Shown one piece after another: positions 11,834-47,133 of a DNA stretch of 64,000 nucleotides (within the stretch, counting starts at the first letter, position 1; every line of letters begins with the position of its first letter). The position numbers and the translations under genes are program-made. The notes under the pieces were generated by a model. It ran no database searches and had not been told where the DNA came from. It saw nothing but the letters and a program-made list of their open reading frames with translations. This DNA is from Trypanosoma brucei (Eukaryota), in contig CP000068.1 in assembly GCA_000002445.1 (NCBI GenBank), forward strand, positions 416,001 to 480,000, read 5' to 3'.

Positions 11834-12949
11834 ATGATGCGCCGCGTACTCCTCCGCTGCCCGCGGCCCCGGCGCAACAGTCCGTTAGCTTTCCAAAGCA
11901 CCTCGAGCCCTGTTACAAAGTGTCCCTTATCACCTAAGCTGCAAAGGCCGCTTCAAACGCCAACGGTTGTGGGTGAATCACGCGGTTGCCCAATGATTGG
12001 GACGGCTCCACACCTCAGTTGCCCTATCGAGAAGGAGCAACTTGGCCAATCAGTACAAGTTAGAGATGTCGTAACACAGTTGGGCAAGCTGAAGCTTTCA
12101 GCCTTTGTGACGGCCACGGCATTGGGTGGTTACGTGATTTGTGGCGGTACCAGCCCGTTGGTAATGGTTGCGGTAACGGTCGGTACGCTTCTACAGTGCT
12201 GTTCTGCCAATACAGCCAATCAGATTATTGAGGTGGAATATGACAGGATGATGAAACGAACCTGCCGACGGCCCCTTCCAATGGGGCTCATATCACGCAG
12301 AAGTGCTACCATTTTGTGTGCCGTGGAGTTACTCTCCGGCTCCTGTATTTTAGGTTCCGTCAGCCCAGCGGCCTCTGCGCTCGGGGCCTTCAACTGGCTG
12401 CTGTACGTGGCCGCGTACACCCCACTGAAGCGCGTGTCCGCCATCAATACGTGGGTGGGTTCCATCGTTGGCGGTATTCCGCCGCTAATGGGAGGAATTG
12501 CAGCCACCGGCACCATAACGGGCCCCGCTTATCTGCTGGGTTCGTTGCTGCTCGTCTGGCAAATACCACATTTTATGGGACTTAGTTTTCATTGCCGTCG
12601 TGACTACGAGGCTGCTGGGTACAAAATGCTGGCGTTTTATAACCCGTGGAGGGCTTCTTTCTACGCTGTATTGTTGTCTGTTATGATGGCTTTCATAACT
12701 CTTGCCGGCCCCGCACTTATCAACATGGCAGCTGAGGGTTGGTACTACCCGGTGGTGGCTGCTGCGAATGCCGTTATGATTTACAAGGCACTGTTATTTC
12801 ATTCGGACCCAAAGCGGCACTGCAGGGGTTGTTTTGTGTTTTCCTACATGTACCTCTCCGTCGTACTCGCCGTGCTGATGCTGAATCATTTGGAACCTGT
12901 GAAGCGGACGACGACCCTGTTTCAGCACTTCACTGCTGTTGCATTATAG
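11834..12949 (+). CDS. COX10: Protoheme IX farnesyltransferase (heme O synthase, UbiA prenyltransferase family)
   Basis: It shows the UbiA/COX10 signature NQIIEVEYDRMMKRTCRRPLP (N-x3-D-x2-D-x-M-x-RT-x2-RPL). It also has a second Asp-rich/YxxxK region and multiple TM helices, and an N-terminal mitochondrial-presequence-like region. Confidence 0.8.
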   Translation: MMRRVLLRCPRPRRNSPLAFQSTSSPVTKCPLSPKLQRPLQTPTVVGESRGCPMIGTAPHLSCPIEKEQLGQSVQVRDVVTQLGKLKLSAFVTATALGGYVICGGTSPLVMVAVTVGTLLQCCSANTANQIIEVEYDRMMKRTCRRPLPMGLISRRSATILCAVELLSGSCILGSVSPAASALGAFNWLLYVAAYTPLKRVSAINTWVGSIVGGIPPLMGGIAATGTITGPAYLLGSLLLVWQIPHFMGLSFHCRRDYEAAGYKMLAFYNPWRASFYAVLLSVMMAFITLAGPALINMAAEGWYYPVVAAANAVMIYKALLFHSDPKRHCRGCFVFSYMYLSVVLAVLMLNHLEPVKRTTTLFQHFTAVAL

Positions 12950-14323
12950 GGCTCCGGTGCCTTACCTCTCCCAAAGCGTAGTTTGCCTTCACGGCTCGGT
13001 AGTGGAGTTAGAGAAAGTTGGGGAATAGTGGCAGATAATATAGGAAGGAAATGGTGTGGCGAGACCGGCGGAAACGGGGGAACAAAAGTTTCCAAGTTTC
13101 GCTGTGAGAATGTCAATGAAGCGTACATGTATGTGTATGTGTATGTGTGTAAACATTACAATCAAGTTTTGGTTGTTATGTACGTTTAACCTCGCGGGGT
13201 GTCGTTGAGGTGGGGGATGGAATAGGAACACCAGCAATAATCAAAGGGCACAAAGGTAACGAGGGGAAAGGTTGAATAAGAAGATGCTGTTAGGTTGGGT
13301 TGCATGAATTGGAAGTTTTGCCTTTCCATAATCCCTTTTTCCTTCTTGAGCTTGCATAAGAGTGTGCGGGTATAATGAGTTCCGAGGATTTGAGGAGGAA
13401 GGGGTATGGGAAAGGAGTGTAGTGTAGTGTAGTGTCGTATTACTAATCACGACCATTATTTTTTCTGTTTTTCCTCACATTTCGAACTTTTAGACCCTTT
13501 TACCTTCTCCTCATTACCGTTTTCGCTAATGTTCCCGATTTCCCACACTTTGTTTTATTCCATTGGGTTGTCTGTAGGCTGTCTGAAACATCTCCCCCCT
13601 CACCGCCCCTTCAAAGAGAATGCGTGTATGGAGAAGGAGTGGAAGCAGAAGGGGTTGTGATTATTTTTATCTTCTTGGTTTCTGTTTACATTTTGTGTTA
13701 TTTTCCCATATAACCCCAATGCACCTTTTACCCGAGGCAGCTGACGGGGAATCGTTCCGTCGTCGTCGTTGTAATGCCGGCAGCGGAGGGTGTCATTTGG
13801 CTTCCTGCGTGTCATGCGGGCTGTGATGGTGGAGGGGGAAGAAAAAACGAAACAAGGGATATGGGCTTGGAGGGTGTGTGTGTGTGTGGGGGGGATATCG
13901 TCGAACTTAGCTCCCGTGCCTCGTCTTTGTACCTTTGCACTTTTACCATTTCGGCCCTTTCTCTATTTATTTTTCTGCTTAGGCTCCGCAACCCGTCTAT
14001 TTAACCCTGTTTTCTGTGTGGAAAAAAAAAGAAATACAAGCGCCGGAGCGCGTATTCGTGCACACGTACTTGCATATATGTATATCTATATTTGTGTATA
14101 CGTTGAGGGTGAACTCATCAATGTGTTACAATTTTTTCTTTTCTATTGCCCTCTTTTTTCTTTATTTGTGCGTTTCCACCCTACTAGTCGGTTCAATCCG
14201 AACCCGCACGCCTCTTTTTCCCCTTCTATCATTTATCATTACATCACTGCTTCGCACTTTTATAACCGTCGTTGTTGGTTTGCTTATTTGCTGCTTGTGT
14301 CGCTGATCCGTTACGTGCTTGAG

Positions 14324-16777: not shown

Positions 16778-17301
16778 TGTGGAAAAGAAAAGATATATAT
16801 ATATATATATATATGTATTTGTATGAAGGAAGGTGAGAATGCGCATGAGAAGGTTTCGTTATCACGAGGTGACTCACTTAACTTCGACAGATATGACTGC
16901 ACTTGCGGCAAGGGTCGAAACCCAGCACACTCTAAACACATAATCACGCTGACGACCCTTAACATGTTTTTAATGTTTGTTTGTGTTGTCCCGCGGGCTG
17001 GATGCTAATAATGCGAGCCGGGGTGGGTGGATGGGGTGAGTCTTATTCGTTCTGTTTACCACTAGTCCACTGATTTTGGGCGCTTTCCTTCCTTGTTTGT
17101 GTTTGTTTATTTTATTTTTTCACTATTCATTTTAGTTCTTTTTTTGTTTTGTTTCATAGCGGCTTTCAAAGCAGCGCACCCTTCCCTTTAGGTGAGTTGT
17201 GTTTACCTTCTCAATCTGTTACGAAGGGGTTTGCTTTAGGTATTTGGTTACCTTTACTTCGCTGAAAAAGGAGTAAGTGGGGATTGTCTGCTGCAGGTGC
17301 T

Positions 17302-31654: not shown

Positions 31655-32010
31655 ACGAATCTTAAATTCAATTCCCGCAATTCCTTCACATGCTTTAGTC
31701 CTCTTACCTTCTGTAAGCCGATACATTCACGAATATCAATAACCTCCATCTTTACACATCCACCCACATATACATCTTCCAACGCTTTACACTTTTCAAT
31801 GGACAGTTTGAGATGATTATTTGCTTCACGCACATCAACATTACGCAAGAGCTCACACTCATCAATTCGTATTTCCCTTATACTCTCATGATATCTGAAC
31901 ATACTAAAACTTTTAATACTGCCACAATTACTCACAAGAAAGCTCTTCAAGGCTTTACATTGCCCCAAGCCCTTTAACCTGCCTATACCCTGACAGTGCG
32001 TGGGTTTCAC
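31655..32010 (-). pseudogene. LRRP fragment truncated at both ends (array-terminal partial copy)
   Basis: The ORF 31624..32010 shares the first ~115 aa with the truncated LRRP copies (MKPTHCQGIGRLKGL...). It then diverges into flanking sequence (RFVGLMDLGRLK) at the array boundary ~31655, and has no ATG at its 5' end. Confidence 0.6.
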
Positions 32011-32563
32011 ATTGCCATATACCCAGTTTGTTAGTGATTGTGGGTTTTATTAAATATTGTTACTGACGCCATTGTTTCATGAGCCGTGTCAGGTCCCTGC
32101 AGGTCTCACTAAAATTGCATACGAAATATGCCCATTTACCTCACTATTCCCTTCACGGAATATTTTCTTATTACACCATAAATAGGGGGAAATGCATTCA
32201 TTACTGAATGGCCAGACCACACCTCCACGTCTTTAAACTATTTAGTCAGAAAATTGCACATCTTACAAACACTGTTTCATATGAGGGGAGGAGTGTGCTA
32301 CACATGCGCCTTTACTTCACGCCAGCTTGGGCTGTAGATATGCACATACAACCCATTTTCACATCTCCCGTAATATTTATTACAGAAAAAATAGTTTATT
32401 ATTTTTATTTTAAGGGGAAGGGGGACGGAGGGAGGGAGAAAAATATCATATATAATGGAAGGGAAACCTCTCCCGCAACAGGTGAGAAATTTTTAAATTG
32501 TAACCTCTCCAGAGGTTAGCCCTTCCTAAACTAAGCAAAATAAGCAAGAGATGATAATATCAT

Positions 32564-33868
32564 TCATTCCTTCCTGTAACATGGAGAGGTTGCCCCACCC
32601 TTTTTGTCAGGTGAAGAAACTGCCTCACCTTTCTCATCAATTACATCTTCAGCATTACCTCTTCTTCGTCTCACAAACACAAGCACCACAGCTGTAATAA
32701 TCGCGAGGATAGCGACAGGTATGAGAACAGCCATAAGTATTACCTTGCTTTCCTTGATCTTACTGCTTAGTGCTGATCTATCACTAGTCTCCAGGAGGTC
32801 ACCGAAGTCCGCATCAGCTCCAACGACCTCTGGTTCGGTTCCACTTGTTGTTCCTGTTCCTGTTCCTGTTGATATTGTTGTTGATGTTCCTCCTGTTGTT
32901 TCTGTTGCCCCACCCTCTCCAGTTGAAGTGCCAACCCCTCGGTGTGTGGTCTCGGGAGCGGCACCTCCAGGGTTAGTGAATTTTGCACCCTTTCTGCTTG
33001 CTTCCTTGGCTTCGACCAAAACTTCGCTGAGTGGCTTGCCTGCACTCAGTCCGCTGTGGACAGCACTTGCACCACTATAAAAGCCAGATACATCATCATG
33101 AGTCTTTTTACCTTGTTCGTGTGACTCTTCGAGTTCCTTAAGCTTGTTCGTGGCTGAGTCATAGTCGGCCTTCCAGTTGTTGGTGACTGGCTGTTGGCCT
33201 TTTGGTTTCTTATTTTCCCATTCTTCTAAGGCTTGTTTCATCGTCCCTGAGGATATATCGTCATAAAGTGTTGTTTTGTGACCCGTTGCTTCGCAGTCAA
33301 TGGTATTCCTTCCCGTCCCTGAATAATGGGTTTTGAACGTAATACCTTCACAGCTAGTGGTCTGTGCATTATCTCCCTTCTTCCCGCAGTACCACTCTAA
33401 AAGCTGGTGAAGTCCACTGGAATTTTGGCCGTCATAGTCAAGTTCCCATCCTCGCGCCTTTTTTGCCGCTTCTGTCGCAGCCTGGCAGCGTTTTTTCGCT
33501 TCCTCGCCATACATTTTCGCTGTTGGCAGCTTATTCTTTAATTTATCCTTCGCCTTTTCGTATATGTCCTTCACTTTTTTAGTATCAGCATCCGAAAGCT
33601 TCGAATAGCCATCGTTACTGTGTGCACGGTTTTCCAGTGTTTGTAACCAGTGTTCCAACCTGTCCAGCCAGAGTTGTATATCATCCGCAAAGCCTTGAGT
33701 TTTTTCTCGGATTTTGTCTGCCCTTCTTTTTTCTATAGTTTTAGCAAGATCCGTCAGCTTACATAGCGCCAATGCACCTTCCTTGTTTAGCTTTGTCTCC
33801 CCATTTGCTTCCACCGCTCGTAGCAGTAAACCTGCAAAGGTAACCGCAACCAAGGAACACCTTATCAT
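32564..33868 (-). CDS. ISG64: Invariant surface glycoprotein, ISG65 family (ISG64-like), copy A: type I membrane protein
   Basis: The 434-aa protein has a signal peptide (MIRCSLVAVTFAGLLLRAVEA), a helical ectodomain with conserved Cys, and a Thr/Gly-rich stalk (GTSTGEGGATETTGGTSTTISTGTGTGTTSGTEPE). A single TM (VILMAVLIPVAILAIITAVVLVFV) is followed by a short Lys-containing cytoplasmic tail (RRRRGNAEDVIDEKGEAVSSPDKKGGATSPCYRKE). Three tandem copies interleaved with LRRP match, from memory (no search), the T. brucei chr5 ISG64 cluster. Confidence 0.8.
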   Translation of the reverse strand: MIRCSLVAVTFAGLLLRAVEANGETKLNKEGALALCKLTDLAKTIEKRRADKIREKTQGFADDIQLWLDRLEHWLQTLENRAHSNDGYSKLSDADTKKVKDIYEKAKDKLKNKLPTAKMYGEEAKKRCQAATEAAKKARGWELDYDGQNSSGLHQLLEWYCGKKGDNAQTTSCEGITFKTHYSGTGRNTIDCEATGHKTTLYDDISSGTMKQALEEWENKKPKGQQPVTNNWKADYDSATNKLKELEESHEQGKKTHDDVSGFYSGASAVHSGLSAGKPLSEVLVEAKEASRKGAKFTNPGGAAPETTHRGVGTSTGEGGATETTGGTSTTISTGTGTGTTSGTEPEVVGADADFGDLLETSDRSALSSKIKESKVILMAVLIPVAILAIITAVVLVFVRRRRGNAEDVIDEKGEAVSSPDKKGGATSPCYRKE

Positions 33869-34306
33869 ATTTCCCTTGTATCAAACTTCGCTTCTTTGTA
33901 TATTTCGCAAGCCAGTTCACTCTCCCACATAAATACAATTATGCACAAAAAGAAGCAATACTCATAGAATCATCAGCAAACATTATTGTAACTTTAGCAA
34001 TACAACCGCAGTTATCATCTTTACTTCCACTTCATAATCATATTATCTTACAAAGGCAATCACATCATTCCAACAGTAACAACTTTCCACTCTCAGATAT
34101 CCTGTTGATATCCTTGTCTCCTAGTTTTGCTGAAGGATAAAATAAATATTCTGCCACACCAACTTATAGTTGCTTATGGTTTCTCTTATTTCCAATTCCA
34201 TGGGAGGAGGATACACATATGCATATATCATGTATGAAAGAAGTATTTCCTTTTGATGTGATGATTACTGGGTATGAACAAACAAATAGTAACATTCATA
34301 AATTAG

Positions 34307-34939
34307 CTACCTAACAACTTGGTCATTATGAGTAGAATGGGAGGTGTCATTGTCACCGCTACGTTTCGAATAGTATTCTGTTTCACTGATAACTTCCACC
34401 CTGTAGTTGAATAATTTCAGCCTCTCCTGTGTAACCACACTATCAGAAATCACAATACTCCTCAGCACCCTACAATATCTCAAAAATCTCAAATCCTCCA
34501 GTTTCTCACAACACTTCACATTCAGCTTTTCCAACCTCGTGTCTTCATACCTGTGTATTCCCGTTATCTCTCGCAGGTTTCGACACCCGGATAAATTCAA
34601 TTCCCGCAATTCCTTCACATGCTTTAGTCCTCTTACCTTCTGTAAGCCGATACATTCACGAATCTCAATAACCTCCATCTTTACACATCCACCCACATAT
34701 ACATCTTCCAACGCTTTACACTTTTCAATGATCAGTTTGAGAAGATTATCTGCTTCACGCACATCAACATTACGCAAGAGCTCACACTCATCAATTCGTA
34801 TTTCCCTTATACTCTCATGATATCTGAACATACTAAAACTTTTAATACTGCCACAATTACTCACAAGAAAGCTCTTCAAGGCTTTACATTGCCCCAAGCC
34901 CTTTAACCTGCCTATACCCTGACAGTGCGTGGGTTTCAC
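34307..34939 (-). CDS. Leucine-rich repeat protein (LRRP, ESAG8-related), 5'-truncated copy; possible pseudogene
   Basis: Its 210 codons match the C-terminal 210 aa of the full-length copy at 40190..41098. The ORF-track start is a GTG at the repeat-unit junction. A stop lies 17 codons upstream, and the first in-frame ATG is codon 36. Confidence 0.55.
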   Translation of the reverse strand: MKPTHCQGIGRLKGLGQCKALKSFLVSNCGSIKSFSMFRYHESIREIRIDECELLRNVDVREADNLLKLIIEKCKALEDVYVGGCVKMEVIEIRECIGLQKVRGLKHVKELRELNLSGCRNLREITGIHRYEDTRLEKLNVKCCEKLEDLRFLRYCRVLRSIVISDSVVTQERLKLFNYRVEVISETEYYSKRSGDNDTSHSTHNDQVVR

Positions 34940-35493
34940 ATTGCCATATACCCAGCCTTTTATCGACCATGAGTTTATTAGATATTGTTAACTGACGCCA
35001 TTGCTTCATGAGCCGTGTCAGGTCCCTGCAGGTGTCGCTAAAAATGCATACGAAATATGCCCATATACCTCATTACTCCCTTACCGGAATATTTTTTTAT
35101 TACACCATAAATAGGGGGAAATATATTCATTACTGAATGGCCAGACCACACCTCCACATCTTTAAATTATTTAGTCAGAAAATTGCACATCTTACAAACA
35201 CTGTTTTATATGGGGGGGAGGGGTGTGCTACACATGCGCCTTTACTTCACGCCAGCTTGGGCTGTAGATATGCACACACAACCCATTTTCACATCTCCCG
35301 TAATATTTATTACAGAAAAAATAGTTTATTATTTTTATTTTAAGGGGAAGGGGGACGGAGGGAGGGAGAAAAATATCATATATAATGGAAGGGAAACCTC
35401 TCCCGCAACAGGTGAGAAATTTTTAAATTGTAACCTCTCCAGAGGTTAGCCCTTCCTAAACTAAGCAAAATAAGCAAGAGATGATAATATCAT
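34940..35493 (-). promoter_or_regulatory. Conserved ISG 3' flank / 3'UTR-intergenic segment (repeated at ~32011-32563 and 37879-38432), candidate mRNA-processing and stage-regulation region
   Basis: It is ~550 nt, almost base-for-base identical between repeat units 2 and 3 and highly similar in unit 1. It contains a short inverted repeat (aacctctc cag agaggtt) and poly-purine/pyrimidine tracts. The regulatory role is inferred. Confidence 0.3.
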
Positions 35494-36801
35494 TCATTCC
35501 TTCCTGTAACATGGAGAGGTTGCCCCACCCTTTTTGTCAGGTGAAGAAACTGCCTCACCTTTCTCATCAATTACATCTTCAGCATTACCTCTTCTTCGTC
35601 TCACAAACACAAGCACCACAGCTGTAATAATCGCGAGGATAGCGACAGGTATGAGAACAGCCATAAGTATTACCTTGCTTTCCTTGATCTTACTGCTTAG
35701 TGCTGATCTATCACTAGTCTCCAGGAGGTCACCGAAGTCCGCATCAGCTCCAACGACCTCTGGTTCGGTTCCACTTGTTGTTCCTGTTCCTGTTCCTGTT
35801 GATATTGTTGTTGATGTTCCTCCTGTTGTTTCTGTTGCCCCACCCTCTCCAGTTGAAGTGCCAACCCCTCGGTGTGTGGTCTCGGGAGCGGCACCTCCAG
35901 GGTTAGTGAATTTTGCACCCTTTCTGCTTGCTTCCTTGGCTTCGACCAAAACTTCGCTGAGTGGCTTGCCTGCACTCAATCCACTATGAAGAGCGTACGC
36001 TGCATTATAAAAGCCAGATACATCGTTAACTGTCTTTTTCCCCTTTTCGTGTGACTCTTCGAGTTCCTTAAGCTTGTTCGTGGCTGAGTCATAGTCGGCC
36101 TTCCAGTTGTTGTTGACTGGCTCACCGTCGCTTTTTGGCTTCTTCCTCTCCCAATTCTCTAAGGCCTCTTTCATCGTCCCTGATGTCACATCCAGGTAAA
36201 ACGGCACTGTAGAACCCGTTCCTTTGCAATCAATTGGGTTCCTTTCCCGCCCTAAGTAGTGTTCTTTTACTTTAACACCATCACACTTCTGATTGTTTGC
36301 ATTATCTCCCTTCGTTCCGCAGTACCACTCTAAAAGCTGGTGAAGTCCACTAGAGTTTTGACCCTCATCATCAAGTCCCCATCCTCGCGCCCTCTTTGCT
36401 GCCTCGGTCACCTCCTGATGGCGTTTTCCAGCTTCCTCGCCAAATTCTTTCGCTTTCGGGAGTTGTTCACTCACTTTACCTTTCGCCTTTTCGTATATTT
36501 CCTTCACTTTTTTAGTATCAGCATCCGAAAGCTTCGAATAGCCGTTGTTGCTGTGTGCACGGGTTTCCAGTGTTTGTAACCAGTGTTCCAACCTGTCCAG
36601 CCAGAGTTTCAACTCATCTGCGAAACCTTCAGTGTCCTTTCTGATTTTATCTGCTTTTTTTGTTGCAACAAGATCAGCGACATCCGTCAGCTTACACAGC
36701 GCCAACGCACCATCTTTGGTCAACTTTGCATTCGAGTTCGCTACCACCACTCGTAGCAGTAAACCTGCAAAGGTAATCGCAACCAAGGAATACCTTATCA
36801 T
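35494..36801 (-). CDS. ISG64: Invariant surface glycoprotein, ISG65 family (ISG64-like), copy B
   Basis: The 435-aa protein has the same architecture as copy A. The C-terminal ~150 aa (stalk, TM, tail) are identical to copies A and C, while the ectodomain diverges in a mosaic fashion. Confidence 0.8.
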   Translation of the reverse strand: MIRYSLVAITFAGLLLRVVVANSNAKLTKDGALALCKLTDVADLVATKKADKIRKDTEGFADELKLWLDRLEHWLQTLETRAHSNNGYSKLSDADTKKVKEIYEKAKGKVSEQLPKAKEFGEEAGKRHQEVTEAAKRARGWGLDDEGQNSSGLHQLLEWYCGTKGDNANNQKCDGVKVKEHYLGRERNPIDCKGTGSTVPFYLDVTSGTMKEALENWERKKPKSDGEPVNNNWKADYDSATNKLKELEESHEKGKKTVNDVSGFYNAAYALHSGLSAGKPLSEVLVEAKEASRKGAKFTNPGGAAPETTHRGVGTSTGEGGATETTGGTSTTISTGTGTGTTSGTEPEVVGADADFGDLLETSDRSALSSKIKESKVILMAVLIPVAILAIITAVVLVFVRRRRGNAEDVIDEKGEAVSSPDKKGGATSPCYRKE

Positions 36802-37245
36802 ATTTCCCTTGTATCAAACTTCGCTTCTTTGTGTATTTCGCAAGCCAGTTCACTTTCCCATATAAATGCAATTATGCACACAAAGAAAAACAGGCGATAT
36901 TCATAGAATCATCGGCAAACATTATTGTAGTTTCAGCAATACAACCGCAGTTATCATCTTTACTCCCACTTCATAATCATATTATCTTACAAAGGCAATC
37001 ACATGATTCCAACAGTAATAACTTTCCACTCTCAGATATCCTATTGATATCCTTGTTTTTTAGTTTTGCTGAAGGATAAAATAAATATTCTGCCACACCA
37101 ACTTATAGTTGCTTATGGTTTCTCTTATTTCCAATTCCATGGGAGGTGAGTACACATATGCATATATCATGCATGAAAGAAGTATTTCCTTTTGATGTGA
37201 TGATTACTGGGTATGAACAAACAAATAGTAACATTCATAAATTAG

Positions 37246-37878
37246 CTACCTAACAACTTGTTCATTATGAGTTGAGTGGGAGGTGTCATTGTCACCGCTA
37301 CGTTTTGAATAGTATTCTGTTTCACTGATAACTTCCACCCTGTAGTTGAATAATTTCAGCCTCTCCTGTGTAACCACACTATCAGAAATCACAATACTCC
37401 TCAGCACCCTACAATATCTCAAAAATCTCAAATCCTCCAGTTTCTCACAACACTTCACATTCAGCTTTTCCAACCTCGTGTCTTCATACCTGTGTATTCC
37501 CGTTATCTCTCGCAGGTTTCGACACCCAGATAAATTCAATTCCCGCAATTCCTTCACATGCTTTAGTCCTCTTACCTTCTGTAAGCCGATACATTCACGA
37601 ATCTCAATAACCTCCATCTTTACACATCCACCCACATATACATCTTCCAACGCTTTACACTTTTCAATGATCAGTTTGAGAAGATTATCTGCTTCACGCA
37701 CATCAACATTACGCAAGAGCTCACACTCATCAATTCGTATTTCCCTTATACTCTCATGATATCTGAACATACTAAAACTTTTAATACTGCCACAATTACT
37801 CACAAGAAAGCTCTTCAAGGCTTTACATTGCCCCAAGCCCTTTAACCTGCCTATACCCTGACAGTGCGTGGGTTTCAC
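37246..37878 (-). CDS. Leucine-rich repeat protein (LRRP), 5'-truncated copy; possible pseudogene
   Basis: It is identical to 34307..34939 except one residue (D/E) and has the same junction breakpoint. Confidence 0.55.
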   Translation of the reverse strand: MKPTHCQGIGRLKGLGQCKALKSFLVSNCGSIKSFSMFRYHESIREIRIDECELLRNVDVREADNLLKLIIEKCKALEDVYVGGCVKMEVIEIRECIGLQKVRGLKHVKELRELNLSGCRNLREITGIHRYEDTRLEKLNVKCCEKLEDLRFLRYCRVLRSIVISDSVVTQERLKLFNYRVEVISETEYYSKRSGDNDTSHSTHNEQVVR

Positions 37879-38432
37879 ATTGCCATATACCCAGCCTTTT
37901 ATCGACCATGAGTTTATTAGATATTGTTAACTGACGCCATTGCTTCATGAGCCGTGTCAGGTCCCTGCAGGTGTCGCTAAAAATGCATACGAAATATGCC
38001 CATATACCTCATTACTCCCTTACCGGAATATTTTTTTATTACACCATAAATAGGGGGAAATATATTCATTACTGAATGGCCAGACCACACCTCCACATCT
38101 TTAAATTATTTAGTCAGAAAATTGCACATCTTACAAACACTGTTTTATATGGGGGGGAGGGGTGTGCTACACATGCGCCTTTACTTCACGCCAGCTTGGG
38201 CTGTAGATATGCACATACAACCCATTTTCACATCTCCCGTAATATTTATTACAGAAAAAATAGTTTATTATTTTTATTTTAAGGGGAAGGGGGACGGAGG
38301 GAGGGAGAAAAATATCATATATAATGGAAGGGAAACCTCTCCCGCAACAGGTGAGAAATTTTTAAATTGTAACCTCTCCAGAGGTTAGCCCTTCCTAAAC
38401 TAAGCAAAATAAGCAAGAGATGATAATATCAT

Positions 38433-39737
38433 TCATTCCTTCCTGTAACATGGAGAGGTTGCCCCACCCTTTTTGTCAGGTGAAGAAACTGCCTCACCTT
38501 TCTCATCAATTACATCTTCAGCATTACCTCTTCTTCGTCTCACAAACACAAGCACCACGGCTGTAATAATCGCGAGGATAGCGACAGGTATGAGAACGGC
38601 CATAAGTATTACCTTGCTTTCCTTGATCTTACTGCTCAGTGCTGATCTATCACTAGTCTCCAGGAGGTCACCGAAGTCCGCATCAGCTCCAACGACCTCT
38701 GGTTCGGTTCCACTTGTTGTTCCTGTTCCTGTTCCTGTTGATATTGTTGTTGATGTTCCTCCTGTTGTTTCTGTTGCCCCACTCTCTCCAGTTGAAGTGC
38801 CAATCCCTCGCTGTGTGGTTTCGGGAGCGGCACCTCCAGGGTTAGTGAATTTTGCACCCTTTCTGCTTGCTTCCTTGGCTTCGACCAAAACTTCGCTGAG
38901 TGGCTTGCCTGCACTCAGCCCACTATGGACAGCGTACGCTGCATTGTAAAAGCCAGATACATCATCATGAGTCTTTTTACCTTGTTCGTGTGACTCTTCT
39001 AGTTCTTCCATTTTTTTCACAGCTGAGTCGTAGTCGCTTTTCCATTTCTCGTAGTCAGCACTTATTTTTTTCGGTTTCTTCTTCTCCCAATCCTCTAAGG
39101 CTTGTTTCATCGTCCCTGCGGATACATGTAAGTAAAAGAGAGCCGTATAGCCCGTTGCTTCGCAATCAATGGTATTCCTTCCCGTCCCTGAATAATGGGT
39201 TTTGAACGTAATACCTTCACAGCTAGTGCTCTGTGCATTTTCTCCCCTCTTCCCGCAGTACCACTCTAAAACTAGATGAAGTCCACTGGAATTTTGACCC
39301 TCATCATCAAGTCCCCATCCTCGCGCCCTCTTTGCTGCCTCGGTCACAGCCTGGCAGTGTTTTTTTGCTTCATCGCCCCATTTTTTAGCTTCTGGCAGCT
39401 TCTCCTTTAATTTATCCTTTGCCTTTTCGTATATGTCCTTCACTTTTTTAGTATCAGCATCCGAAAGCTTCGAATAGCCATCGTTACTGTGTGCAGGGTC
39501 TTGTAGCGTCTGTAACCAACTGTCCAAGCTGTCCAACCAGAGCTTCAATCCATGTGCAAAGCCTTCAGTATCCCGTCCAATCTTATCTGCTTTTTTATCT
39601 CCGACAGTTTTAGCAAGATCCGTCAGCTTACATAGCGCCAACGCACCATCTCTGTTCAACTTTGCATTCGAGTTCGCTACCACCACTCGTAGCAGTAAAC
39701 CTGCAAAGGTAACCGCAACCAAGGAATACCTTATCAT
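38433..39737 (-). CDS. ISG64: Invariant surface glycoprotein, ISG65 family (ISG64-like), copy C
   Basis: The 434-aa protein has the same architecture. Its ectodomain is a patchwork of segments shared with copy A (SCEGITFKTHYSGTGRNTIDCEATG) and with copy B (GWGLDDEGQNSSGLH; NAAYA-HSGL). Confidence 0.8.
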   Translation of the reverse strand: MIRYSLVAVTFAGLLLRVVVANSNAKLNRDGALALCKLTDLAKTVGDKKADKIGRDTEGFAHGLKLWLDSLDSWLQTLQDPAHSNDGYSKLSDADTKKVKDIYEKAKDKLKEKLPEAKKWGDEAKKHCQAVTEAAKRARGWGLDDEGQNSSGLHLVLEWYCGKRGENAQSTSCEGITFKTHYSGTGRNTIDCEATGYTALFYLHVSAGTMKQALEDWEKKKPKKISADYEKWKSDYDSAVKKMEELEESHEQGKKTHDDVSGFYNAAYAVHSGLSAGKPLSEVLVEAKEASRKGAKFTNPGGAAPETTQRGIGTSTGESGATETTGGTSTTISTGTGTGTTSGTEPEVVGADADFGDLLETSDRSALSSKIKESKVILMAVLIPVAILAIITAVVLVFVRRRRGNAEDVIDEKGEAVSSPDKKGGATSPCYRKE

Positions 39738-40189
39738 ATTTCCCTTGTATCAAACTTCGCTTTTTTAGTTTATATATATTTTCGCAAGCCAGTTCACTTT
39801 CCCATATAAATGCAATTATGCACACAAAGAAAAACAGGCGATATTCATAGAATCATCGGCAAACATTATTGTAACTTTAGCAATACAACCGCAGTTATCA
39901 TCTTTACTCCCACTTCATAATCATATTATCTTACAAAAGCAATCACATGATTCCAACAGTAATAACTTTCCACTCTCAGATATCCTATTGATATCCTTGT
40001 TTTTTAGTTTTGCTGAAGGATAAAATAAATATTCTGCCACACCAACTTATAGTTGCTTATGGTTTCTCTTATTTCCAATTCCATGGGAGGTGAGTACACA
40101 TATGCATATATCATGTATGAAAAAAGTATTTCCTTTTGATATGATGATTACTGGGTATGAACAAACAAATAGTAACATTCATAAATTAG

Positions 40190-41098
40190 CTACCTAACAA
40201 CTTGTTCATTATGAGTTGAGTGGGAGGTGTCATTGTCACCGCTACGTTTTGAATAGTATTCTGTTTCACTGATAACTTCCACCCTGTAGTTGAATAATTT
40301 CAGCCTCTCCTGTGTAACCACACTATCAGAAATCACAATACTCTTCAGCACCCTACAATATCTCAAAAATCTCAAATCCTCCAGTTTTTCACAACACTTA
40401 ACATTCAGCTTTTCCAACCTCGTGTCTTCATATCTGTGTATTCCCGTTATCTCTCGCAGGTTTCGACACCCGGATAAATTCAATTCCCGCAATTCCTTCA
40501 CATGCTTTAGTCCTCTTACCTTCTGTAAGCCGATACATTCACGAATATCAATAACCTCCATCTTTACACATCCACCCACGTATACATCTTCCAACGCTTT
40601 ACACTTTTCAATGGACAGTTTGAGAAGATTATCTGCTTCACGCACATCAACATTACGCAAGAGCTCACACTCATCAATTCGAATTTCCCTTATACTCTCA
40701 TGATATCTGAACATACTAAAACTTTTAATACTGCCACAATTACTCACAAGAAAGCTCTTCAAGGCTTTACATTGCCCCAAGCCCTTTAACCTGCCTATAC
40801 CCTGACAGTGCTTGAGTTTTACACTTTCTAACGCTTTGCAGTGCTTCAGAGGTTCTAATTCAGAAACTGTGCGACAGTCTGTAACCGTTATTTTCTGTAA
40901 ACCATATAACTGTTCCACTCCTTTAAAGGTTTTGAACTCATCACATTGTTTTATATCCAGGCTTTTGGTGGCGGTGAATTCACGGGAAAGTATCACCAAG
41001 TTTTTTAAACCCCTAAATTTCGCAATCTTTAGAGTTTCTTGGAAATAACTATACGGAACTTCCGTTTCTTCTCTCGCCCTCTTCGCCACAATGTTCAT
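40190..41098 (-). CDS. Leucine-rich repeat protein (LRRP; ESAG8-related LRR family), full-length copy relative to the array fragments
   Basis: The 302-aa protein starts at an ATG (41098, MNIVAKRAR...). It has repeated ~23-24 aa LRR units with conserved C/L/N positions (e.g. LKHCKALESVKLKHCQGIGRLKGLGQCKALKSFLVSNCGSIKS). Its 3' two-thirds are identical to the array copies. Confidence 0.7.
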   Translation of the reverse strand: MNIVAKRAREETEVPYSYFQETLKIAKFRGLKNLVILSREFTATKSLDIKQCDEFKTFKGVEQLYGLQKITVTDCRTVSELEPLKHCKALESVKLKHCQGIGRLKGLGQCKALKSFLVSNCGSIKSFSMFRYHESIREIRIDECELLRNVDVREADNLLKLSIEKCKALEDVYVGGCVKMEVIDIRECIGLQKVRGLKHVKELRELNLSGCRNLREITGIHRYEDTRLEKLNVKCCEKLEDLRFLRYCRVLKSIVISDSVVTQERLKLFNYRVEVISETEYYSKRSGDNDTSHSTHNEQVVR

Positions 41099-43383: not shown

Positions 43384-46300
43384 TCATAACGTTACCGTAA
43401 AGCCATCAGTATCGCTCAACTGCCCAGTGGCGATACTTGTGCTGCGTCCCGTGGATTGAGAGACCACGGTGTGATCTATGACCTTTCCAACCTTCGCAGC
43501 AACAATATGTATGACTTGCCTACAGTAGTCATCGCTCCATACGAATCCTGCCTCGGGTGGCAACGCAACACGCCACCGTTCGCAAAAGGGCATCAGTGCT
43601 TTCCGTCGTTGTGCGGCTGTAAACGTGCCCAGTAGGGCATTGAGGGAGTCGACAATAGTTTGGGCTGAACGCGTTATTGCATTGCCTGAGAGACCGCGTT
43701 CGCCGCTGGAAATAGAGCCTTCAGAGCTATCCCCGAAGACACAAGTGTCCTTATCGATATCCAGCGCTGCAAAGATCCTTCCCGGCACAGCATTCAGTTG
43801 CCATATTTCCACAGGTGCGTTCACACCGCGAAGTTCAACGGGAGCAAGTGCGGTGACATCAATTTGCTCACGCTCCTCAGCTGAAAGTGACATGTATGTC
43901 GCACGTGTCATTAACACCTGCCCACCATCTGCCACACCTTCCGTCCGCGCTGCCATGTTTGATGTGTGCCCGTAGTAGTCATATCCTTTAGTAACCTCAT
44001 CATTCCGAATTTCGCATAACCCGGTGTGAATCCCAACACGCACACGCAGGCCACTCCACAGCTGGTCGTACACGTTAGGATCCAGATGTGCGGACGGCGG
44101 AGTATACCCCTCTTCTTCTTCAGCTCGCCGCCGCTCCATATCTCGGTAGAGCTCATCGAACGCGGTCGTTCCCCAGTTGTGGTGCAAGAATGTCCGTTGC
44201 AGATCATGTGCAAGCTGTACGGCAGCGAAGGGGTCCTTGCAAGCAATCATGAAGGAGTCTCCAACCGTCTTTACCTCATAACAGTTGTATCGCACAATAA
44301 GTGACCGAATCAAACGGTGGTGCAGGTCAACAGCATCGGGCATCAACTCGGGGTATGCCGACCACTGCGCAGTGCTGCTTTCAATGTCTGTGAAAACAAG
44401 CGTCACAGGATCTGACAGTTCCTTCGGCGCATTCCCGTTGTCACGGGCACTACGCTGTGCGAAGTACAATTGACAAACAACTATCGCCACAAACAGAAAC
44501 ACAGTGAAGAGAGAACCAACGACGATGCCTATGAGCGTTGAGCCTGTAGATCCAGCCGCGTTCGGGTCATGATATTGCATCGACGGCGTGACGGGTAGAG
44601 CGAGAGCGGGTACAGAGGCATTCAACACACGTGCCATCGACCACACGGAGATGCGGGTTGCTCCATAGTTCACAGCACATCCACCATCGCCAAGACCATC
44701 GACATCGTCGTTAACACACTCACCATGGTTGAAAGGGCCATAGTACATATCGCCGGCACTCACACCGATGTTGTTATAGAAAAGATTAATCACCGTCTCC
44801 CCGCTCACCTTTTCTATACGCGGAATGATAGTCCGAACTACTCGTGCGGCGGCGAAACCCACCAATGCCAATGGCGTCCACTGCGCTGGGTCTGGAAGCG
44901 CGGCGTGAAAGCCCTGTACAATTTCGGATGAGCTGTGGACCTCTGCCCAGTGCGGCAGGTTTGTTGCAATTAGCAGTCGGTTGGCGCTTGAGCTACCGTT
45001 GAAAGCTTTCAAAACCTCATCGTATAGAAGCACAACATCGAAGAACGGAACCAGCACATGTACGTCCGGGTTGCGTTCCATGTGTGCCACTACTGAACCA
45101 ACATCGCTGGCAGTGAGACCAATTATGAACACATTGCCGTAAACAGGAAGTGCACCTTCTATTGTTTCATTGACTCGTGCTGTCACCAGAGAATGCGGCG
45201 TCACACCAAATGTCGCGAGCGTCCTTGTCAGTACGTCCCCGATTGCATTAGAGTCCTCCCCCCGAATGACGGCCCGCACGCCGCTGCCGCTGCTGCTCGA
45301 AATGTATGCCGCCAACACGAACAGTTGTTGCTCAAGTGTAGGCGACAAATGGATCACATTCTTCATACGGCGATTTAGCTGTGGGGTGAGGGGCACGGGA
45401 TCAATGAACGCCAAACCCGGCGTCCGCATTATTGTAGGATGCACTACGCCAAATACGGCTGTAACTGTCCTGGTATTCAACTCTTGCTGCAAGCTACCAG
45501 TCAGCCCATCTGAAAGTGCGGGAAGCGTATGCATAAATACCCTATTCGACTGCTCATGATGCCCCCTACTAACGCTGACCGATGCCGCATTGCGCATAAT
45601 TGTCGCCGCCCTTAATGCAATGGGGTCATCTAATGTTAGGATGAAAAGACCGATTAGCGGAGCGTGCAACCCACCGGAATCACTGTAGCACCCTGATACG
45701 TCGCGCGTGATTAGCCCATCCGCCAAGGGCGAAAGGTTACCGTTCTCTTCCAACCTGTTCATGTAAATCACATGCCCACCCTGGTTACAACGGCATGTAG
45801 CGCCCTGAGCAGCTGCGGAGCCTGTGCATTCGCCACCGTAGTCACCAATGACGAGGTCATCAATCACGTACCGGCGCTGATTGTACAGCGATTTTTTAAA
45901 TTCTTCCCTGCTCGTTAGCCACTCGCGATTGCTTAGCGCTTGCAGCAGTGCCTCACCGGCAACCCATCCAAGCACCGCCAGCTTCCCAGTGGTGGCATGC
46001 TTGAGAAAATGGTCTTCACCACCGGGGCTACTTTCGTTCTTTTGCGCCTTTAGATATGACCTCATTTCCTTCTGAAACCGTCGTACGGCATGGTGTTTGA
46101 CGTCGGTTGCGAGCGGGTTTGTTCCCGTGATAATAACTTGACCTGACGCAAAGGCGACCTTTCCACTTCGACGGAGTTCTTCAGCTATGATGCTAATAGC
46201 TGGCTGCAGCGCAGATGGGGCCAGGATGTACATGTCTTTTGTGCGTTCGTCCGAAGGCACCGCCAAAAGAAACTTGAACGTATCTGTGTTGGGAGGCCCT

Positions 46301-47133
46301 AATACAAGCACACCCTGCGGATGCAAGGAAGCGAATCGACTCCACATCGCATTGAAGACTTCACCGCTAGCCGAACCATAATCGGAACTTTCTAGCGCAA
46401 AAACTCCGCAGAGATCACGCCCCATTCTTGACATCAGCCTCATCGTGAGTTCATACTGTACCTCACCATAAGAGGTATTGTGCAAATGCATTAAACCCAA
46501 TCGAAGTGGTCGTAGTTGACTCAGTGCGTAGTAAATGAGGGCGATGAGTTCGGCAACAGGATCGGCTCCAAGGAAGTACAAATGCGGTGTCCACTTGCGG
46601 AGCCCGCTTGACCCAGTAACTGGGGCGAAGGCAATTACATTGTGCTTTTCGAGTAGAGGTGTCACGGCTAAGACATCACGGTCACTCAACGGCCCGAGCA
46701 GCACCAGCAATTCCGATTTGTTTGAAAGTTTCTTGTCAAGCGCATCAATGCTTTGATTACCATAAGATCCCCAGCTTACAGGAACAACGTGCACATTTCG
46801 CGCTGCGGTCCAATTACGTGCAGCGAGCGAGCTGTTGAAACCAGAAATGATGGCATCACCAATTGGTGAGGGAGCACGGAGGCCACGCATAAGGCACAGC
46901 ACAGTCACTGTAACGTTATCTCCCGAATGCACGGAAGCCCGCAGTGGCATCGGAAGCAACATCAACAGCGAAAACATAAACAATGGCACCCACAACCTTG
47001 GGACTCTTGAGTTATCCTTCCCTTCACAGCGAAGGCCAACACCAACACCATTGGCGCTCCCTTTAACGTGGACGGACTTTTCTCCTCCTCTTTTTCTCCA
47101 TTTGTTCCCGAGTAAACTCGTCCTGTCGTTCAT
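43384..47133 (-). CDS. GRESAG4: Receptor-type adenylate cyclase, GRESAG4/ESAG4 family
   Basis: The 1249-aa protein has a large extracellular periplasmic-binding-protein-like domain and a single TM (LIGIVVGSLFTVFLFVAIVVCQLYF). The C-terminal class III cyclase catalytic domain carries FTDIESSTAQWS, VKTVGDSFMIA and GHTSNMAARTE motifs. An alternative start at 46977 (MFSLLMLLPMPLRA signal peptide) would remove a 52-aa N-terminal leader. Confidence 0.85.
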   Translation of the reverse strand: MNDRTSLLGNKWRKRGGEKSVHVKGSANGVGVGLRCEGKDNSRVPRLWVPLFMFSLLMLLPMPLRASVHSGDNVTVTVLCLMRGLRAPSPIGDAIISGFNSSLAARNWTAARNVHVVPVSWGSYGNQSIDALDKKLSNKSELLVLLGPLSDRDVLAVTPLLEKHNVIAFAPVTGSSGLRKWTPHLYFLGADPVAELIALIYYALSQLRPLRLGLMHLHNTSYGEVQYELTMRLMSRMGRDLCGVFALESSDYGSASGEVFNAMWSRFASLHPQGVLVLGPPNTDTFKFLLAVPSDERTKDMYILAPSALQPAISIIAEELRRSGKVAFASGQVIITGTNPLATDVKHHAVRRFQKEMRSYLKAQKNESSPGGEDHFLKHATTGKLAVLGWVAGEALLQALSNREWLTSREEFKKSLYNQRRYVIDDLVIGDYGGECTGSAAAQGATCRCNQGGHVIYMNRLEENGNLSPLADGLITRDVSGCYSDSGGLHAPLIGLFILTLDDPIALRAATIMRNAASVSVSRGHHEQSNRVFMHTLPALSDGLTGSLQQELNTRTVTAVFGVVHPTIMRTPGLAFIDPVPLTPQLNRRMKNVIHLSPTLEQQLFVLAAYISSSSGSGVRAVIRGEDSNAIGDVLTRTLATFGVTPHSLVTARVNETIEGALPVYGNVFIIGLTASDVGSVVAHMERNPDVHVLVPFFDVVLLYDEVLKAFNGSSSANRLLIATNLPHWAEVHSSSEIVQGFHAALPDPAQWTPLALVGFAAARVVRTIIPRIEKVSGETVINLFYNNIGVSAGDMYYGPFNHGECVNDDVDGLGDGGCAVNYGATRISVWSMARVLNASVPALALPVTPSMQYHDPNAAGSTGSTLIGIVVGSLFTVFLFVAIVVCQLYFAQRSARDNGNAPKELSDPVTLVFTDIESSTAQWSAYPELMPDAVDLHHRLIRSLIVRYNCYEVKTVGDSFMIACKDPFAAVQLAHDLQRTFLHHNWGTTAFDELYRDMERRRAEEEEGYTPPSAHLDPNVYDQLWSGLRVRVGIHTGLCEIRNDEVTKGYDYYGHTSNMAARTEGVADGGQVLMTRATYMSLSAEEREQIDVTALAPVELRGVNAPVEIWQLNAVPGRIFAALDIDKDTCVFGDSSEGSISSGERGLSGNAITRSAQTIVDSLNALLGTFTAAQRRKALMPFCERWRVALPPEAGFVWSDDYCRQVIHIVAAKVGKVIDHTVVSQSTGRSTSIATGQLSDTDGFTVTL

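What the first reader, a model, noticed from the sequence alone, without database searches (positions are those of the whole stretch)
32564..39737. Mosaic ectodomains indicate patchy gene conversion among ISG paralogues
Pairwise sharing of sequence blocks switches along the gene. Copies B and C share the N-terminal VANSNAKL, GWGLDDEGQNSSGLH and NAAYA-HSGL, while copy A has VEANGETKL, GWELDYDGQNSSGLH and SGASAVHSGL. Copies A and C share the block SCEGITFKTHYSGTGRNTIDCEATG, where B has KCDGVKVKEHYLGRERNPIDCKGTG. All three become identical from the stalk onward. This is the signature of segmental gene conversion or recombination superimposed on concerted evolution of the 3' half and flanks.
Basis: seen in the sequence. 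Interest (0 to 1): 0.6.

Follow-up and report, generated by a model that had tools for sequence, protein, structure and literature searches.

The report
Mosaic ISG64 surface-protein gene array
Three tandem copies of a trypanosome surface-protein gene (ISG64) have swapped short patches of their outer-domain sequence while the rest of each repeat stays nearly identical. This is real recombination, but the same pattern is already published for tandem gene arrays in this parasite.

Summary
The window is Trypanosoma brucei brucei TREU927 chromosome 5. It carries the three-copy ISG64 array (A 32564-33868, B 35494-36801, C 38433-39737, minus strand), interleaved with leucine-rich-repeat protein genes.

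- **Where the copies differ:** almost all differences lie in CDS nt ~52-822, the folded N-terminal domain. There the copies are 78-81% identical.
- **Switching:** the closest pair changes at least 8 times. Variable sites form 79 runs against 153 expected (z = -10.5).
- **Not selection:** within shared blocks, synonymous divergence is 0 for the matching pair and 0.5-0.9 for the others. This excludes local selection.
- **Formal tests:** adding T. b. gambiense and T. equiperdum copies, PHI is overwhelming, even at purely synonymous sites.
- **A dated tract:** copy B is orthologous to gambiense copy s1 (97.8%), except for a 28-67 nt tract that is identical to copy A.
- **Flanks:** the 3' UTRs cluster by genome, which is concerted evolution.

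It is not new in kind. Jackson 2007 and Jackson et al. 2010 describe such mosaics in T. brucei arrays, with the ISG65 array as exemplar. This array is catalogued there but not analysed. Interest is low to moderate.

The parts
31644..40810 (-). Tandem array: about 3.1 units of ~2.93 kb, each holding one LRR-protein gene and one ISG64 gene
   Evidence: Repeat families with spacing 2929-2944 nt. Ends located by ungapped extension.
32564..33868 (-). ISG64 copy A (434 aa), last gene of the array
   Evidence: ORF. 100% match to XP_844813, T. b. brucei TREU927. Pfam ISG65-75, E = 5e-51.
35494..36801 (-). ISG64 copy B (435 aa), middle gene. Its ectodomain is orthologous to T. b. gambiense Tbg_s1/Tbg_v1.
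   Evidence: ORF. 97.8% nt identity to Tbg_s1 over nt 52-810, against 78% to A and C.
38433..39737 (-). ISG64 copy C (434 aa), first gene of the array
   Evidence: ORF. Matches XP_844817.
33050..33817 (-). Copy A mosaic/divergent region (aligned CDS nt 52-822, the folded N-terminal domain)
   Evidence: Paralogue dS is 0.47-0.61 here, against 0.03-0.06 downstream.
35980..36750 (-). Copy B mosaic/divergent region
38919..39686 (-). Copy C mosaic/divergent region
32564..33049 (-). Copy A homogenised part (linker/stalk, TM, cytoplasmic tail). The equivalents are B 35494-35979 and C 38433-38918.
   Evidence: A=B identical over nt 824-1305. C differs at 9 nt. 97.8-99.0% identity.
36721..36749 (-). 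B=C block, nt 53-81 (C: 39657-39685). A is the odd one out at 11 consecutive variable sites.
   Evidence: pS is 0.00 for B-C and 0.52 against A.
33631..33674 (-). A=B block, nt 195-238 (B: 36564-36607). C is the odd one out at 12 consecutive sites.
   Evidence: pS is 0.00 against ~0.6.
36361..36410 (-). B=C block, nt 392-441 (C: 39297-39346). 11 consecutive sites.
33302..33422 (-). A=C block, nt 447-567 (C: 39171-39291). 30 of 37 variable sites have B as the odd one out, and nt 510-572 is perfectly identical.
   Evidence: pS is 0.00 against ~0.6.
33131..33192 (-). A=B block, nt 680-741 (B: 36061-36122). 23 of 24 sites have C as the odd one out.
36069..36096 (-). Delimited conversion tract in copy B (nt 706-733). 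At 11 consecutive sites B differs from its gambiense orthologue s1 and equals copy A (A: 33139-33166). The maximum extent is 67 nt (nt 690-756).
   Evidence: A run of 11 was seen in 0 of 200,000 permutations; analytic bound 3e-10.
33095..33115 (-). A=C block, nt 757-777 (C: 38964-38984). It directly abuts the A=B tract.
40190..41098 (-). Full-length LRR-protein gene (302 aa) at the head of the array. 5'-truncated copies lie at 37246-37878 and 34307-34939, and a 3'-truncated fragment at 31624-32010.
   Evidence: 97-99% identity among copies.

Best explanation
This is the chromosome-5 ISG64 array of T. brucei (Tb927.5.1390-1430 by my recollection of the gene numbering; a paper confirms Tb927.5.1410 as '64 kDa ISG').

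The three paralogues carry deeply diverged versions of the N-terminal three-helix-bundle ectodomain, with synonymous divergence of about 0.5-0.6. These versions are older than the split of the T. brucei subspecies.

Homologous recombination between misaligned or sister repeat units acts across the whole ~2.9 kb unit. In the near-identical parts (UTRs, LRR-protein gene, signal peptide, stalk, TM, tail) it produces long tracts and homogenises the copies within each genome. That is concerted evolution. In the ~20% diverged ectodomain only short patches of about 30-120 nt are transferred. The result is shuffling rather than erasure: each gene becomes a patchwork in which the nearest relative changes every few dozen bases.

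**Shown:**
- the block structure and its non-randomness;
- recombination signal at synonymous sites;
- incompatible local trees;
- a 28-67 nt patch that distinguishes copy B from its gambiense orthologue and is identical to copy A;
- genome-specific clustering of the 3' UTR.

**Inferred:**
- the events are non-reciprocal gene conversions rather than closely spaced double crossovers;
- divergence-dependent suppression of recombination (mismatch repair), selection for ectodomain diversity, or both, keep the ectodomain from being homogenised;
- the direction A->B for the delimited tract.
For: - **Identity of the locus.** 100% match to TREU927 proteins on a 1,608,198-bp contig. Pfam ISG65-75, E = 5e-51. 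Solved ISG65 structures match at E = 4e-65. '64 kDa ISG, Tb927.5.1410' appears in PMC3584999.
- **Block structure.**. At least 8 breakpoints by BIC segmentation, against none in shuffles.
- **Age of the divergence.** dS 0.47-0.61, dN 0.17-0.20, omega ~0.3-0.37 in the ectodomain, against dS 0.03-0.06 downstream. Within shared blocks pS = 0 for the matching pair and 0.5-0.9 for the others.
- **Recombination tests.** PHI z = -29 on all 11 genes and z = -16 on the two syntenic arrays. PHI z = -9.9 on synonymous-only columns, and the synonymous-only triplet runs test gives z = -4.0.
- **Local trees.** Quartet topologies switch in runs.
- **Orthologue comparison.** Of the 17 ectodomain differences between B and Tbg_s1, 11 lie in one tract (nt 706-733) where B = A and s1 = C at 9 of 11. 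Sites 270 and 294 carry one state in all three TREU927 copies and another in all eight gambiense/equiperdum copies.
- **Flanks.** The 3' UTR clusters by genome while the ectodomain clusters by type across subspecies.
- **Precedent.** Jackson 2007 and Jackson et al. 2010 report the same behaviour for T. brucei arrays, including ISG65.
Against: - Only three genomes were available. The extra DAL972 copies sit on unplaced contigs appended to the chromosome record and may be alleles rather than additional paralogues.
- No read-level or independent-assembly check of TREU927 copies A and C was possible.
- Sequence alone cannot separate gene conversion from closely spaced double crossovers. It also cannot separate mitotic intra-array events from meiotic exchange between homologues.
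- Donor and recipient are not polarised for most blocks.
- Some segments of A and C (for example C nt 661-720, best match 63%) have no sampled donor. Part of the pattern therefore reflects old unshared divergence or unsampled donors.
Confidence: 0.85

Rival explanations
1. There was no recombination. The blocks reflect lineage-specific local bursts of substitution (diversifying selection) in one copy at a time, or convergent amino-acid selection that makes two copies look alike.
For: With only three sequences every variable site is a singleton. A run of 'B is odd' sites could in principle be a local burst in B. The protein is host-exposed, and omega (~0.3-0.37) is fairly high.
Against: - Synonymous sites show the same structure: pS is 0.00 against 0.5-0.9 in adjacent blocks.
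- PHI on purely synonymous columns gives z = -9.9.
- Both block types (for example KCDGVKVKEHYLGRERNPIDCKGTG and SCEGITFKTHYSGT.RNTIDCE) recur in gambiense and equiperdum genes joined to different neighbouring blocks.
- Four-taxon incompatibilities are clustered.
- Pairwise omega is below 1 everywhere tested.
Confidence: 0.02
2. The mosaic is an assembly artefact: chimeric assembly of near-identical repeats or of two haplotypes in the TREU927 reference.
For: - The flanks of the repeat units are 96-100% identical, the classic setting for repeat mis-assembly.
- TREU927 is diploid and the reference is a haploid consensus (my own knowledge, not checked here).
- Exact-sequence look-ups found no independent record of copies A and C.
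Against: - Partner switches occur every 30-120 nt inside a region that is ~20% diverged. That is far shorter than a Sanger read, so each read would itself carry several switches (inference).
- Independent assemblies reproduce the same ectodomain types over ~760 nt. Tb_B and Tbg_s1 are 97.8% identical and mostly 100% in 60-nt windows. Tbg_s2 and T. equiperdum are 99.2% identical.
- The mis-assembly-prone parts are the flanks, not the ectodomain.
Confidence: 0.03
3. The recombination is real but is not intra-array gene conversion. The mosaics arise mainly by meiotic or mitotic crossing-over between homologous chromosomes that carry different ISG64 haplotypes, including unequal crossovers. They are therefore shuffled ancestral alleles rather than paralogue-to-paralogue conversion.
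For: - Array content and order differ between genomes. Tb_B is the middle copy, while its orthologue Tbg_s1 is the first copy.
- DAL972 has extra copies on unplaced contigs.
- T. equiperdum has a single copy that combines an s2-type ectodomain with an s3-type 3' UTR, as expected from an unequal crossover.
- T. brucei undergoes meiosis in the tsetse fly (my own knowledge, not checked here).
Against: - The B tract at nt 706-733 is a short insert with the original background restored on both sides within 67 nt or less. It is 100% identical to the neighbouring copy A in the same array. This fits a conversion patch much better than two crossovers.
- Sites 270 and 294 are fixed across all copies within a genome, which requires copy-to-copy transfer.
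- The two processes are not exclusive.
Confidence: 0.1

Closest known systems
ISG65 tandem array on T. brucei chromosome 2 (Tb927.2.3270-3320), described as a recombinant mosaic array by Jackson et al. 2010 (PMC2854126)
   Same: - Same protein family (Pfam ISG65-75; roughly half of aligned residues identical in the alignment shown).
- Tandem array.
- Significant PHI, multiple breakpoints (at least 5 by GARD in that paper), and subspecies-specific mosaics.
   Different: - Different locus (chromosome 5) and subfamily (ISG64).
- Only three copies in TREU927.
- Two-gene repeat unit with an interleaved LRR-protein gene.
- This array is not in that paper's recombination table as far as the held text shows.
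'Allelic gene conversion' in T. brucei tandem gene arrays in general (Jackson 2007, PMC1855330)
   Same: - Homogenised non-coding regions with more divergent coding regions.
- Conversion tracts of tens to hundreds of nt.
- The suggestion that, where sequences diverge fast, conversion disperses motifs among duplicates instead of homogenising them.
- The array is catalogued there as no. [quoted passage not shown]
   Different: No gene-conversion events are listed for array 37 in the supplementary tables held. The orthologue-anchored tract and the contrast between ectodomain and UTR are shown here, not in that paper.
Segmental gene conversion that builds mosaic VSG genes in T. brucei
   Same: Short patches are copied between diverged paralogues of a surface-glycoprotein gene, giving combinatorial ectodomain variants with conserved C-terminal parts.
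   Different: - ISG64 genes are chromosome-internal and sit in a polycistronic unit flanked by housekeeping genes; by my own knowledge all copies are co-expressed.
- Nothing here indicates somatic switching during infection.
- The events here are evolutionary. Copy B shows one or two since the brucei/gambiense split.

Membership tests
ISG65/ISG75 invariant surface glycoprotein family (Pfam PF11727) | Significant match to the family profile over the N-terminal domain | tested here: met
   E = 5.3e-51, 174 bits against a cut-off of 25.1, residues 22-255. Solved ISG65 chains 7pi6, 7zgj and 8ovb match at E = 4e-65 to 3e-58.
ISG65/ISG75 invariant surface glycoprotein family (Pfam PF11727) | Type I membrane architecture: signal peptide, helical ectodomain, linker, single TM helix, short lysine-containing cytoplasmic tail | tested here: met
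   Read directly from the sequence: N-terminal hydrophobic MIR.SLVAVTFAGLLL, a hydrophobic stretch VILMAVLIPVAILAIITAVVLVFV followed by RRRR, and a 35-aa tail containing K residues. The AF2 model predicts long helices at 29-79, 93-139 and 232-275, but confidence is low overall (mean pLDDT 51).
ISG64 subfamily (chromosome-5 array) | Identity with genes named ISG64, and location on chromosome 5 next to a GRESAG4 adenylate cyclase and LRR-protein genes | tested here: met
   The closest clusters include proteins named '64 kDa invariant surface glycoprotein' in T. equiperdum and DAL972. Tb927.5.1410 is called '64 kDa ISG' in PMC3584999. The syntenic loci L002 and L003 have the same neighbours. The adenylate cyclase lies at 43384-47133.
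Recombinant (mosaic) tandem gene array as defined by Jackson 2007 / Jackson et al. 2010 | Tandem repetition of a unit with sequence variants among copies | tested here: met
   About 3.1 units of ~2.93 kb. The ectodomain is 78-81% identical among copies.
Recombinant (mosaic) tandem gene array as defined by Jackson 2007 / Jackson et al. 2010 | Statistically significant recombination signal (PHI) and multiple breakpoints in alignments of copies from both subspecies | tested here: met
   PHI gave 0/2000 permutations as low as observed, with z = -16 to -29. On synonymous-only columns z = -9.9. At least 8 breakpoints in the TREU927 triplet. GARD and RDP themselves were not available; equivalent tests were scripted.
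Recombinant (mosaic) tandem gene array as defined by Jackson 2007 / Jackson et al. 2010 | Subspecies-specific recombinant copies | tested here: met
   Tb_A and Tb_C have no end-to-end orthologue in DAL972; the best matches are 84.7% and 82.3%, and the nearest neighbour changes along the gene. Tb_B differs from Tbg_s1 by a tract taken from an A-type sequence.
Concerted evolution | Paralogues within a genome are more alike than orthologues between genomes | tested here: met
Met for the 3' UTR: 95.7-99.8% within TREU927 and 98.0-99.2% among the syntenic DAL972 copies, against 91-93% between the two genomes. Also met at sites 270 and 294.
VSG-type antigenic variation by segmental gene conversion | Somatic switching into a telomeric expression site, 70-bp repeats, monoallelic expression | not tested
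   The context is a chromosome-internal polycistronic unit flanked by housekeeping genes. I did not search for 70-bp repeats. The resemblance is mechanistic only, and membership is not claimed.

The most novel reading that the evidence does not exclude
The ISG64 ectodomain types may be ancient lineages shared across subspecies and actively kept apart by balancing or diversifying selection on a host-exposed receptor surface. Short-patch conversion within the array would then act as a slow combinatorial generator of new ectodomain variants. Under this reading a nominally 'invariant' antigen family is a population-level variable antigen system, with strain-specific repertoires that affect ligand binding, serodiagnosis and vaccine prospects.
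Probability: 0.25. Interest if true: 0.45.

Novelty: new member of a known kind. Interest (0 to 1): 0.22.

Why it matters
- **Diagnostics.** ISG64 is one of the abundant antibody-recognised surface antigens of bloodstream trypanosomes and has been used in serodiagnostic tests, in which three ISG64 sub-types were expressed separately (PMC3584999). Its ectodomain is a strain-specific patchwork of old sequence types, while the stalk, TM and tail are uniform. This tells antigen designers which parts are shared across strains.
- **Function.** If ISG64 resembles its relative ISG65, a complement C3 receptor by my own knowledge, the paralogues may differ in ligand binding.
- **Evolution.** The locus gives a compact example, anchored by an orthologue, of the same recombination machinery homogenising the flanks while only shuffling a diverged core. 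The principle itself is already published for T. brucei arrays.

Tried and rejected
- **PHI on the three copies alone.** Rejected as uninformative because all sites are singletons. I replaced it with run, segmentation and 3SEQ-like tests on the triplet, and ran PHI after adding 8 genes from DAL972 and T. equiperdum.
- **More ISG64 sequences.** Two protein database searches (full length and ectodomain only) returned only the TREU927, DAL972 and T. equiperdum genes. Exact look-ups of copies A and C in other assemblies found nothing. No Lister 427, EATRO1125, T. b. rhodesiense or T. evansi data could be used.
- **Donor fragments in the window.** tblastn of the ectodomain against all 64 kb finds only the three genes. 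Ectopic donors such as the chromosome-2 ISG65 array could not be examined.
- **Structure mapping.** The AF2 model is poor (mean pLDDT 51). I used it only for helix boundaries and ran no fold search.
- **RNA genes.** tRNA and Rfam scans of the window were empty.
- **Positive selection.** Pairwise dN/dS gives no evidence of it, with omega ~0.3. Site-model tests were not run, because recombination invalidates them.

Full report
**What is there.** The window matches Trypanosoma brucei brucei TREU927 proteins at 100% identity on a 1,608,198-bp contig. That size fits chromosome 5, and the array catalogue of Jackson 2007 places this array on chromosome 5.

The finding covers three minus-strand genes: A 32564-33868 (434 aa), B 35494-36801 (435 aa) and C 38433-39737 (434 aa). 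They belong to Pfam ISG65-75 (E = 5e-51). They match solved ISG65 structures at E = 4e-65, with roughly half of the aligned residues identical in the alignment shown. Their closest named relatives are '64 kDa invariant surface glycoprotein'. Tb927.5.1410 is called 64 kDa ISG in PMC3584999.

The genes sit in a tandem array of about 3.1 units of ~2.93 kb, at roughly 31644-40810. Each unit also carries a leucine-rich-repeat protein gene:
- a full-length copy at 40190-41098;
- 5'-truncated copies at 37246-37878 and 34307-34939;
- a 3'-truncated fragment at 31624-32010.

A GRESAG4-type adenylate cyclase lies upstream at 43384-47133. The array is the last element of a minus-strand gene run that meets a plus-strand run at about 29-31.6 kb. 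No further ISG-like fragment exists in the window.

**Checking the observation.** 'Identical from the stalk onward' is exact only for A and B, from nt 824. C has 9 nt / 3 aa differences between nt 921 and 1182.

At nucleotide level, per-100-nt identity in the ectodomain runs from 0.66 to 0.94 and the best pair changes. Most of the flanks are 0.96-1.00.

Of the 246 variable sites, 67 have A as the odd one out, 89 have B, 74 have C, and 16 are three-way. They form 79 runs, against 153 +/- 7 expected (z = -10.5; 0 of 20,000 shuffles). The longest run is 26, against at most 17 in shuffles. A BIC change-point analysis gives 9 segments (8 breakpoints), against a single segment in 30/30 shuffles. The block structure is therefore real.

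**Is it recombination?** With three sequences every variable site is a singleton. PHI and GARD cannot work on them alone, and a run could in principle be a local burst of substitution in one copy. Three lines of evidence exclude that.

1. *Synonymous sites behave the same way.* Within shared blocks the matching pair has pS = 0.00 and the other pairs 0.5-0.9. Overall, ectodomain dS is 0.47-0.61 with omega ~0.3-0.37, against dS 0.03-0.06 in the stalk/TM/tail part. The runs test on purely synonymous sites gives z = -4.0.

2. *Formal tests on more sequences.* I fetched the syntenic T. b. gambiense DAL972 array (three copies, L003), further DAL972 copies on contigs appended to the chromosome record (L001, L004), and the single T. 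equiperdum copy (L002).
   - PHI on the 11 complete genes is 0.262, against 0.422 +/- 0.006 (0/2000; z = -29).
   - On the two syntenic arrays z = -16.
   - On columns of codons whose amino acid never changes, z = -9.9 (0/5000).
   - 3SEQ-like tests give p < 5e-5 with A or C as the mosaic, and p = 0.004 with B.

3. *Local trees conflict.* In the quartet A, B, C, Tbg_s1, 87 sites support (A,C)(B,s1) and 14 support (A,B)(C,s1). The 14 cluster at nt 711-733 and 921-958. With Tbg_s3 as the fourth taxon the three topologies get 27, 25 and 30 sites, in runs.

**An orthologue-anchored conversion tract.** Copy B is 97.8% identical to gambiense Tbg_s1/Tbg_v1 over nt 52-810, and 100% in most 60-nt windows. 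It is only 78% identical to its array mates. Of the 17 differences between B and s1 in the ectodomain, 11 are consecutive informative sites at nt 706-733 (window 36069-36096). There B equals A (33139-33166), and s1 equals C at 9 of 11 sites.

A run of 11 among 21 such sites in 190 never occurred in 200,000 permutations; the analytic bound is 3e-10. A and B are perfectly identical over nt 690-756, so the patch is 28-67 nt long. Immediately downstream, at nt 757-777, A switches to identity with C while B returns to s1. The perfect A=B identity suggests a recent A-to-B transfer in the TREU927 lineage. The reverse event in gambiense cannot be excluded.

Sites 270 and 294 carry one state in all three TREU927 copies and the other in all eight gambiense/equiperdum copies. 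These are changes that spread to every copy within a genome.

**Two regimes in one repeat.** The 650 nt after the stop codon cluster by genome. TREU927 copies are 95.7-99.8% alike and the syntenic DAL972 copies 98.0-99.2%, but the two genomes are only 91-93% alike. That is concerted evolution. The ectodomain instead clusters by type across subspecies (Tb_B with Tbg_s1; Tbg_s2 with Teq_1 at 99.2%).

The divergent region ends at nt ~822 (codon 274). This coincides with the end of the third long helix in a low-confidence AF2 model (helices 29-79, 93-139, 232-275; mean pLDDT 51). It also falls just past the stretch matched by the Pfam ISG65-75 domain, residues 22-255. The mosaic part is thus the folded N-terminal domain. 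The uniform part is the linker, TM helix and tail.

**Mechanism (inference).** Homologous recombination between repeat units starts easily in the long near-identical flanks and homogenises them. Where exchange reaches into the ~20% diverged ectodomain, only short patches survive. Two causes are possible: divergence-dependent rejection of heteroduplex by mismatch repair (known in T. brucei from my own knowledge, not tested here), and selection against loss of distinct ectodomain types. The net effect is to disperse motifs rather than to homogenise. Jackson 2007 proposed this for fast-diverging surface-protein arrays.

Unequal crossing-over also acts on the array:
- copy order is not conserved, since Tb_B is the middle copy and Tbg_s1 the first;
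- DAL972 has extra copies;
- T. equiperdum has a single copy that combines an s2-type ectodomain with an s3-type 3' UTR.

**Rivals.**
- *Selection-only explanations* are contradicted by the synonymous-site results.
- *Assembly chimerism* is unlikely. Switches occur every 30-120 nt inside a highly diverged region, and independent assemblies reproduce whole ectodomain types. I could not check reads, however, and copies A and C have no independent record.
- *Crossover between homologues* instead of paralogue conversion probably contributes. It does not explain the short patch in B or the genome-wide fixed sites.

**Comparison with what is known.** Jackson 2007 (PMC1855330) surveyed T. brucei tandem arrays and reported widespread gene conversion with homogenised non-coding regions. 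Its supplementary catalogue lists this array as no. [quoted passage not shown] No conversion events are given for it.

Jackson et al. [quoted passage not shown] They found mosaics in 31/35 data sets and use the chromosome-2 ISG65 array as the worked example. This array is not in their table as far as the held text shows. Sullivan et al. 2013 (PMC3584999) already treated ISG64 as three sequence sub-groups for diagnostics.

**Verdict.** The finding is a correct reading and a further instance of a described phenomenon: a new member of a known kind. The orthologue-anchored tract and the contrast between ectodomain and UTR are tidy but not surprising. Interest is 0.22.

Noticed in passing
window 31624-32010, 34307-34939, 37246-37878, 40190-41098 (minus strand): The repeat unit is a two-gene unit. 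Only the first LRR-protein gene is full length (302 aa). The internal copies lose about 92 N-terminal residues at the repeat junction near 40805, and the last copy is cut off after about 116 residues where the array ends near 31644. The array boundaries therefore lie inside the LRR-protein gene.
   Followed up: partly
L002 (T. equiperdum, CM010676.1) 8648-12242, compared with window 31644-41098: T. equiperdum has a single ISG64 gene between the full-length LRR-protein gene and the convergent neighbour. Its ectodomain is 99.2% identical to gambiense copy s2, while its 3' UTR is 99.8% identical to s3. This could be an unequal-crossover deletion product or a collapsed assembly.
   Followed up: partly
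L001 and L004 (DAL972 FN554968.1, 1334780-1385737): The end of the DAL972 chromosome-5 record looks like a string of unplaced array contigs: ISG64/LRRP units next to STT3, MatE and phospholipase B genes. It holds at least 4 complete and 2 partial extra ISG64 genes. v1 is identical to s1 in the ectodomain but carries a TREU927-like stalk. These may be the second haplotype or additional copies.
   Followed up: partly
window 35494-36801 compared with L003 7060-8358: Positional orthology is broken. The middle TREU927 copy (B) corresponds by sequence to the first gambiense copy (s1). TREU927 copies A and C have no end-to-end counterpart in DAL972.
   Followed up: yes
window ~31900-32563, 34850-35493, 37790-38432 (3' UTRs): The ISG64 3' UTRs of TREU927 and DAL972 are only 91-93% identical. 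This is far below the 99.2% coding-region average reported for the two genomes (PMC2854126). The whole array, and not only the ectodomain, is carried on deeply diverged haplotypes.
   Followed up: no
window 32604-33080, 35534-35989, 38473-38949 (plus strand): ORFs of 151-158 aa run antisense to the ISG stalk/TM region and recur in each unit. They are proline-, serine-, threonine- and valine-rich reverse readings of the Thr/Gly-rich stalk and are almost certainly not genes.
   Followed up: no
window ~28900-31600: Plus-strand genes (up to 28896) and the minus-strand run (from 31624) converge here. The region is low-complexity and pyrimidine/purine-rich. ARAGORN found no tRNA and there was no Rfam match anywhere in the window.
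   Followed up: partly
window 13790-16777, 17284-20259, 59300-60931, 61823-62761: Four large ORFs (312-995 aa) have no Pfam match at E <= 1e-5. They were not examined further.
   Followed up: no
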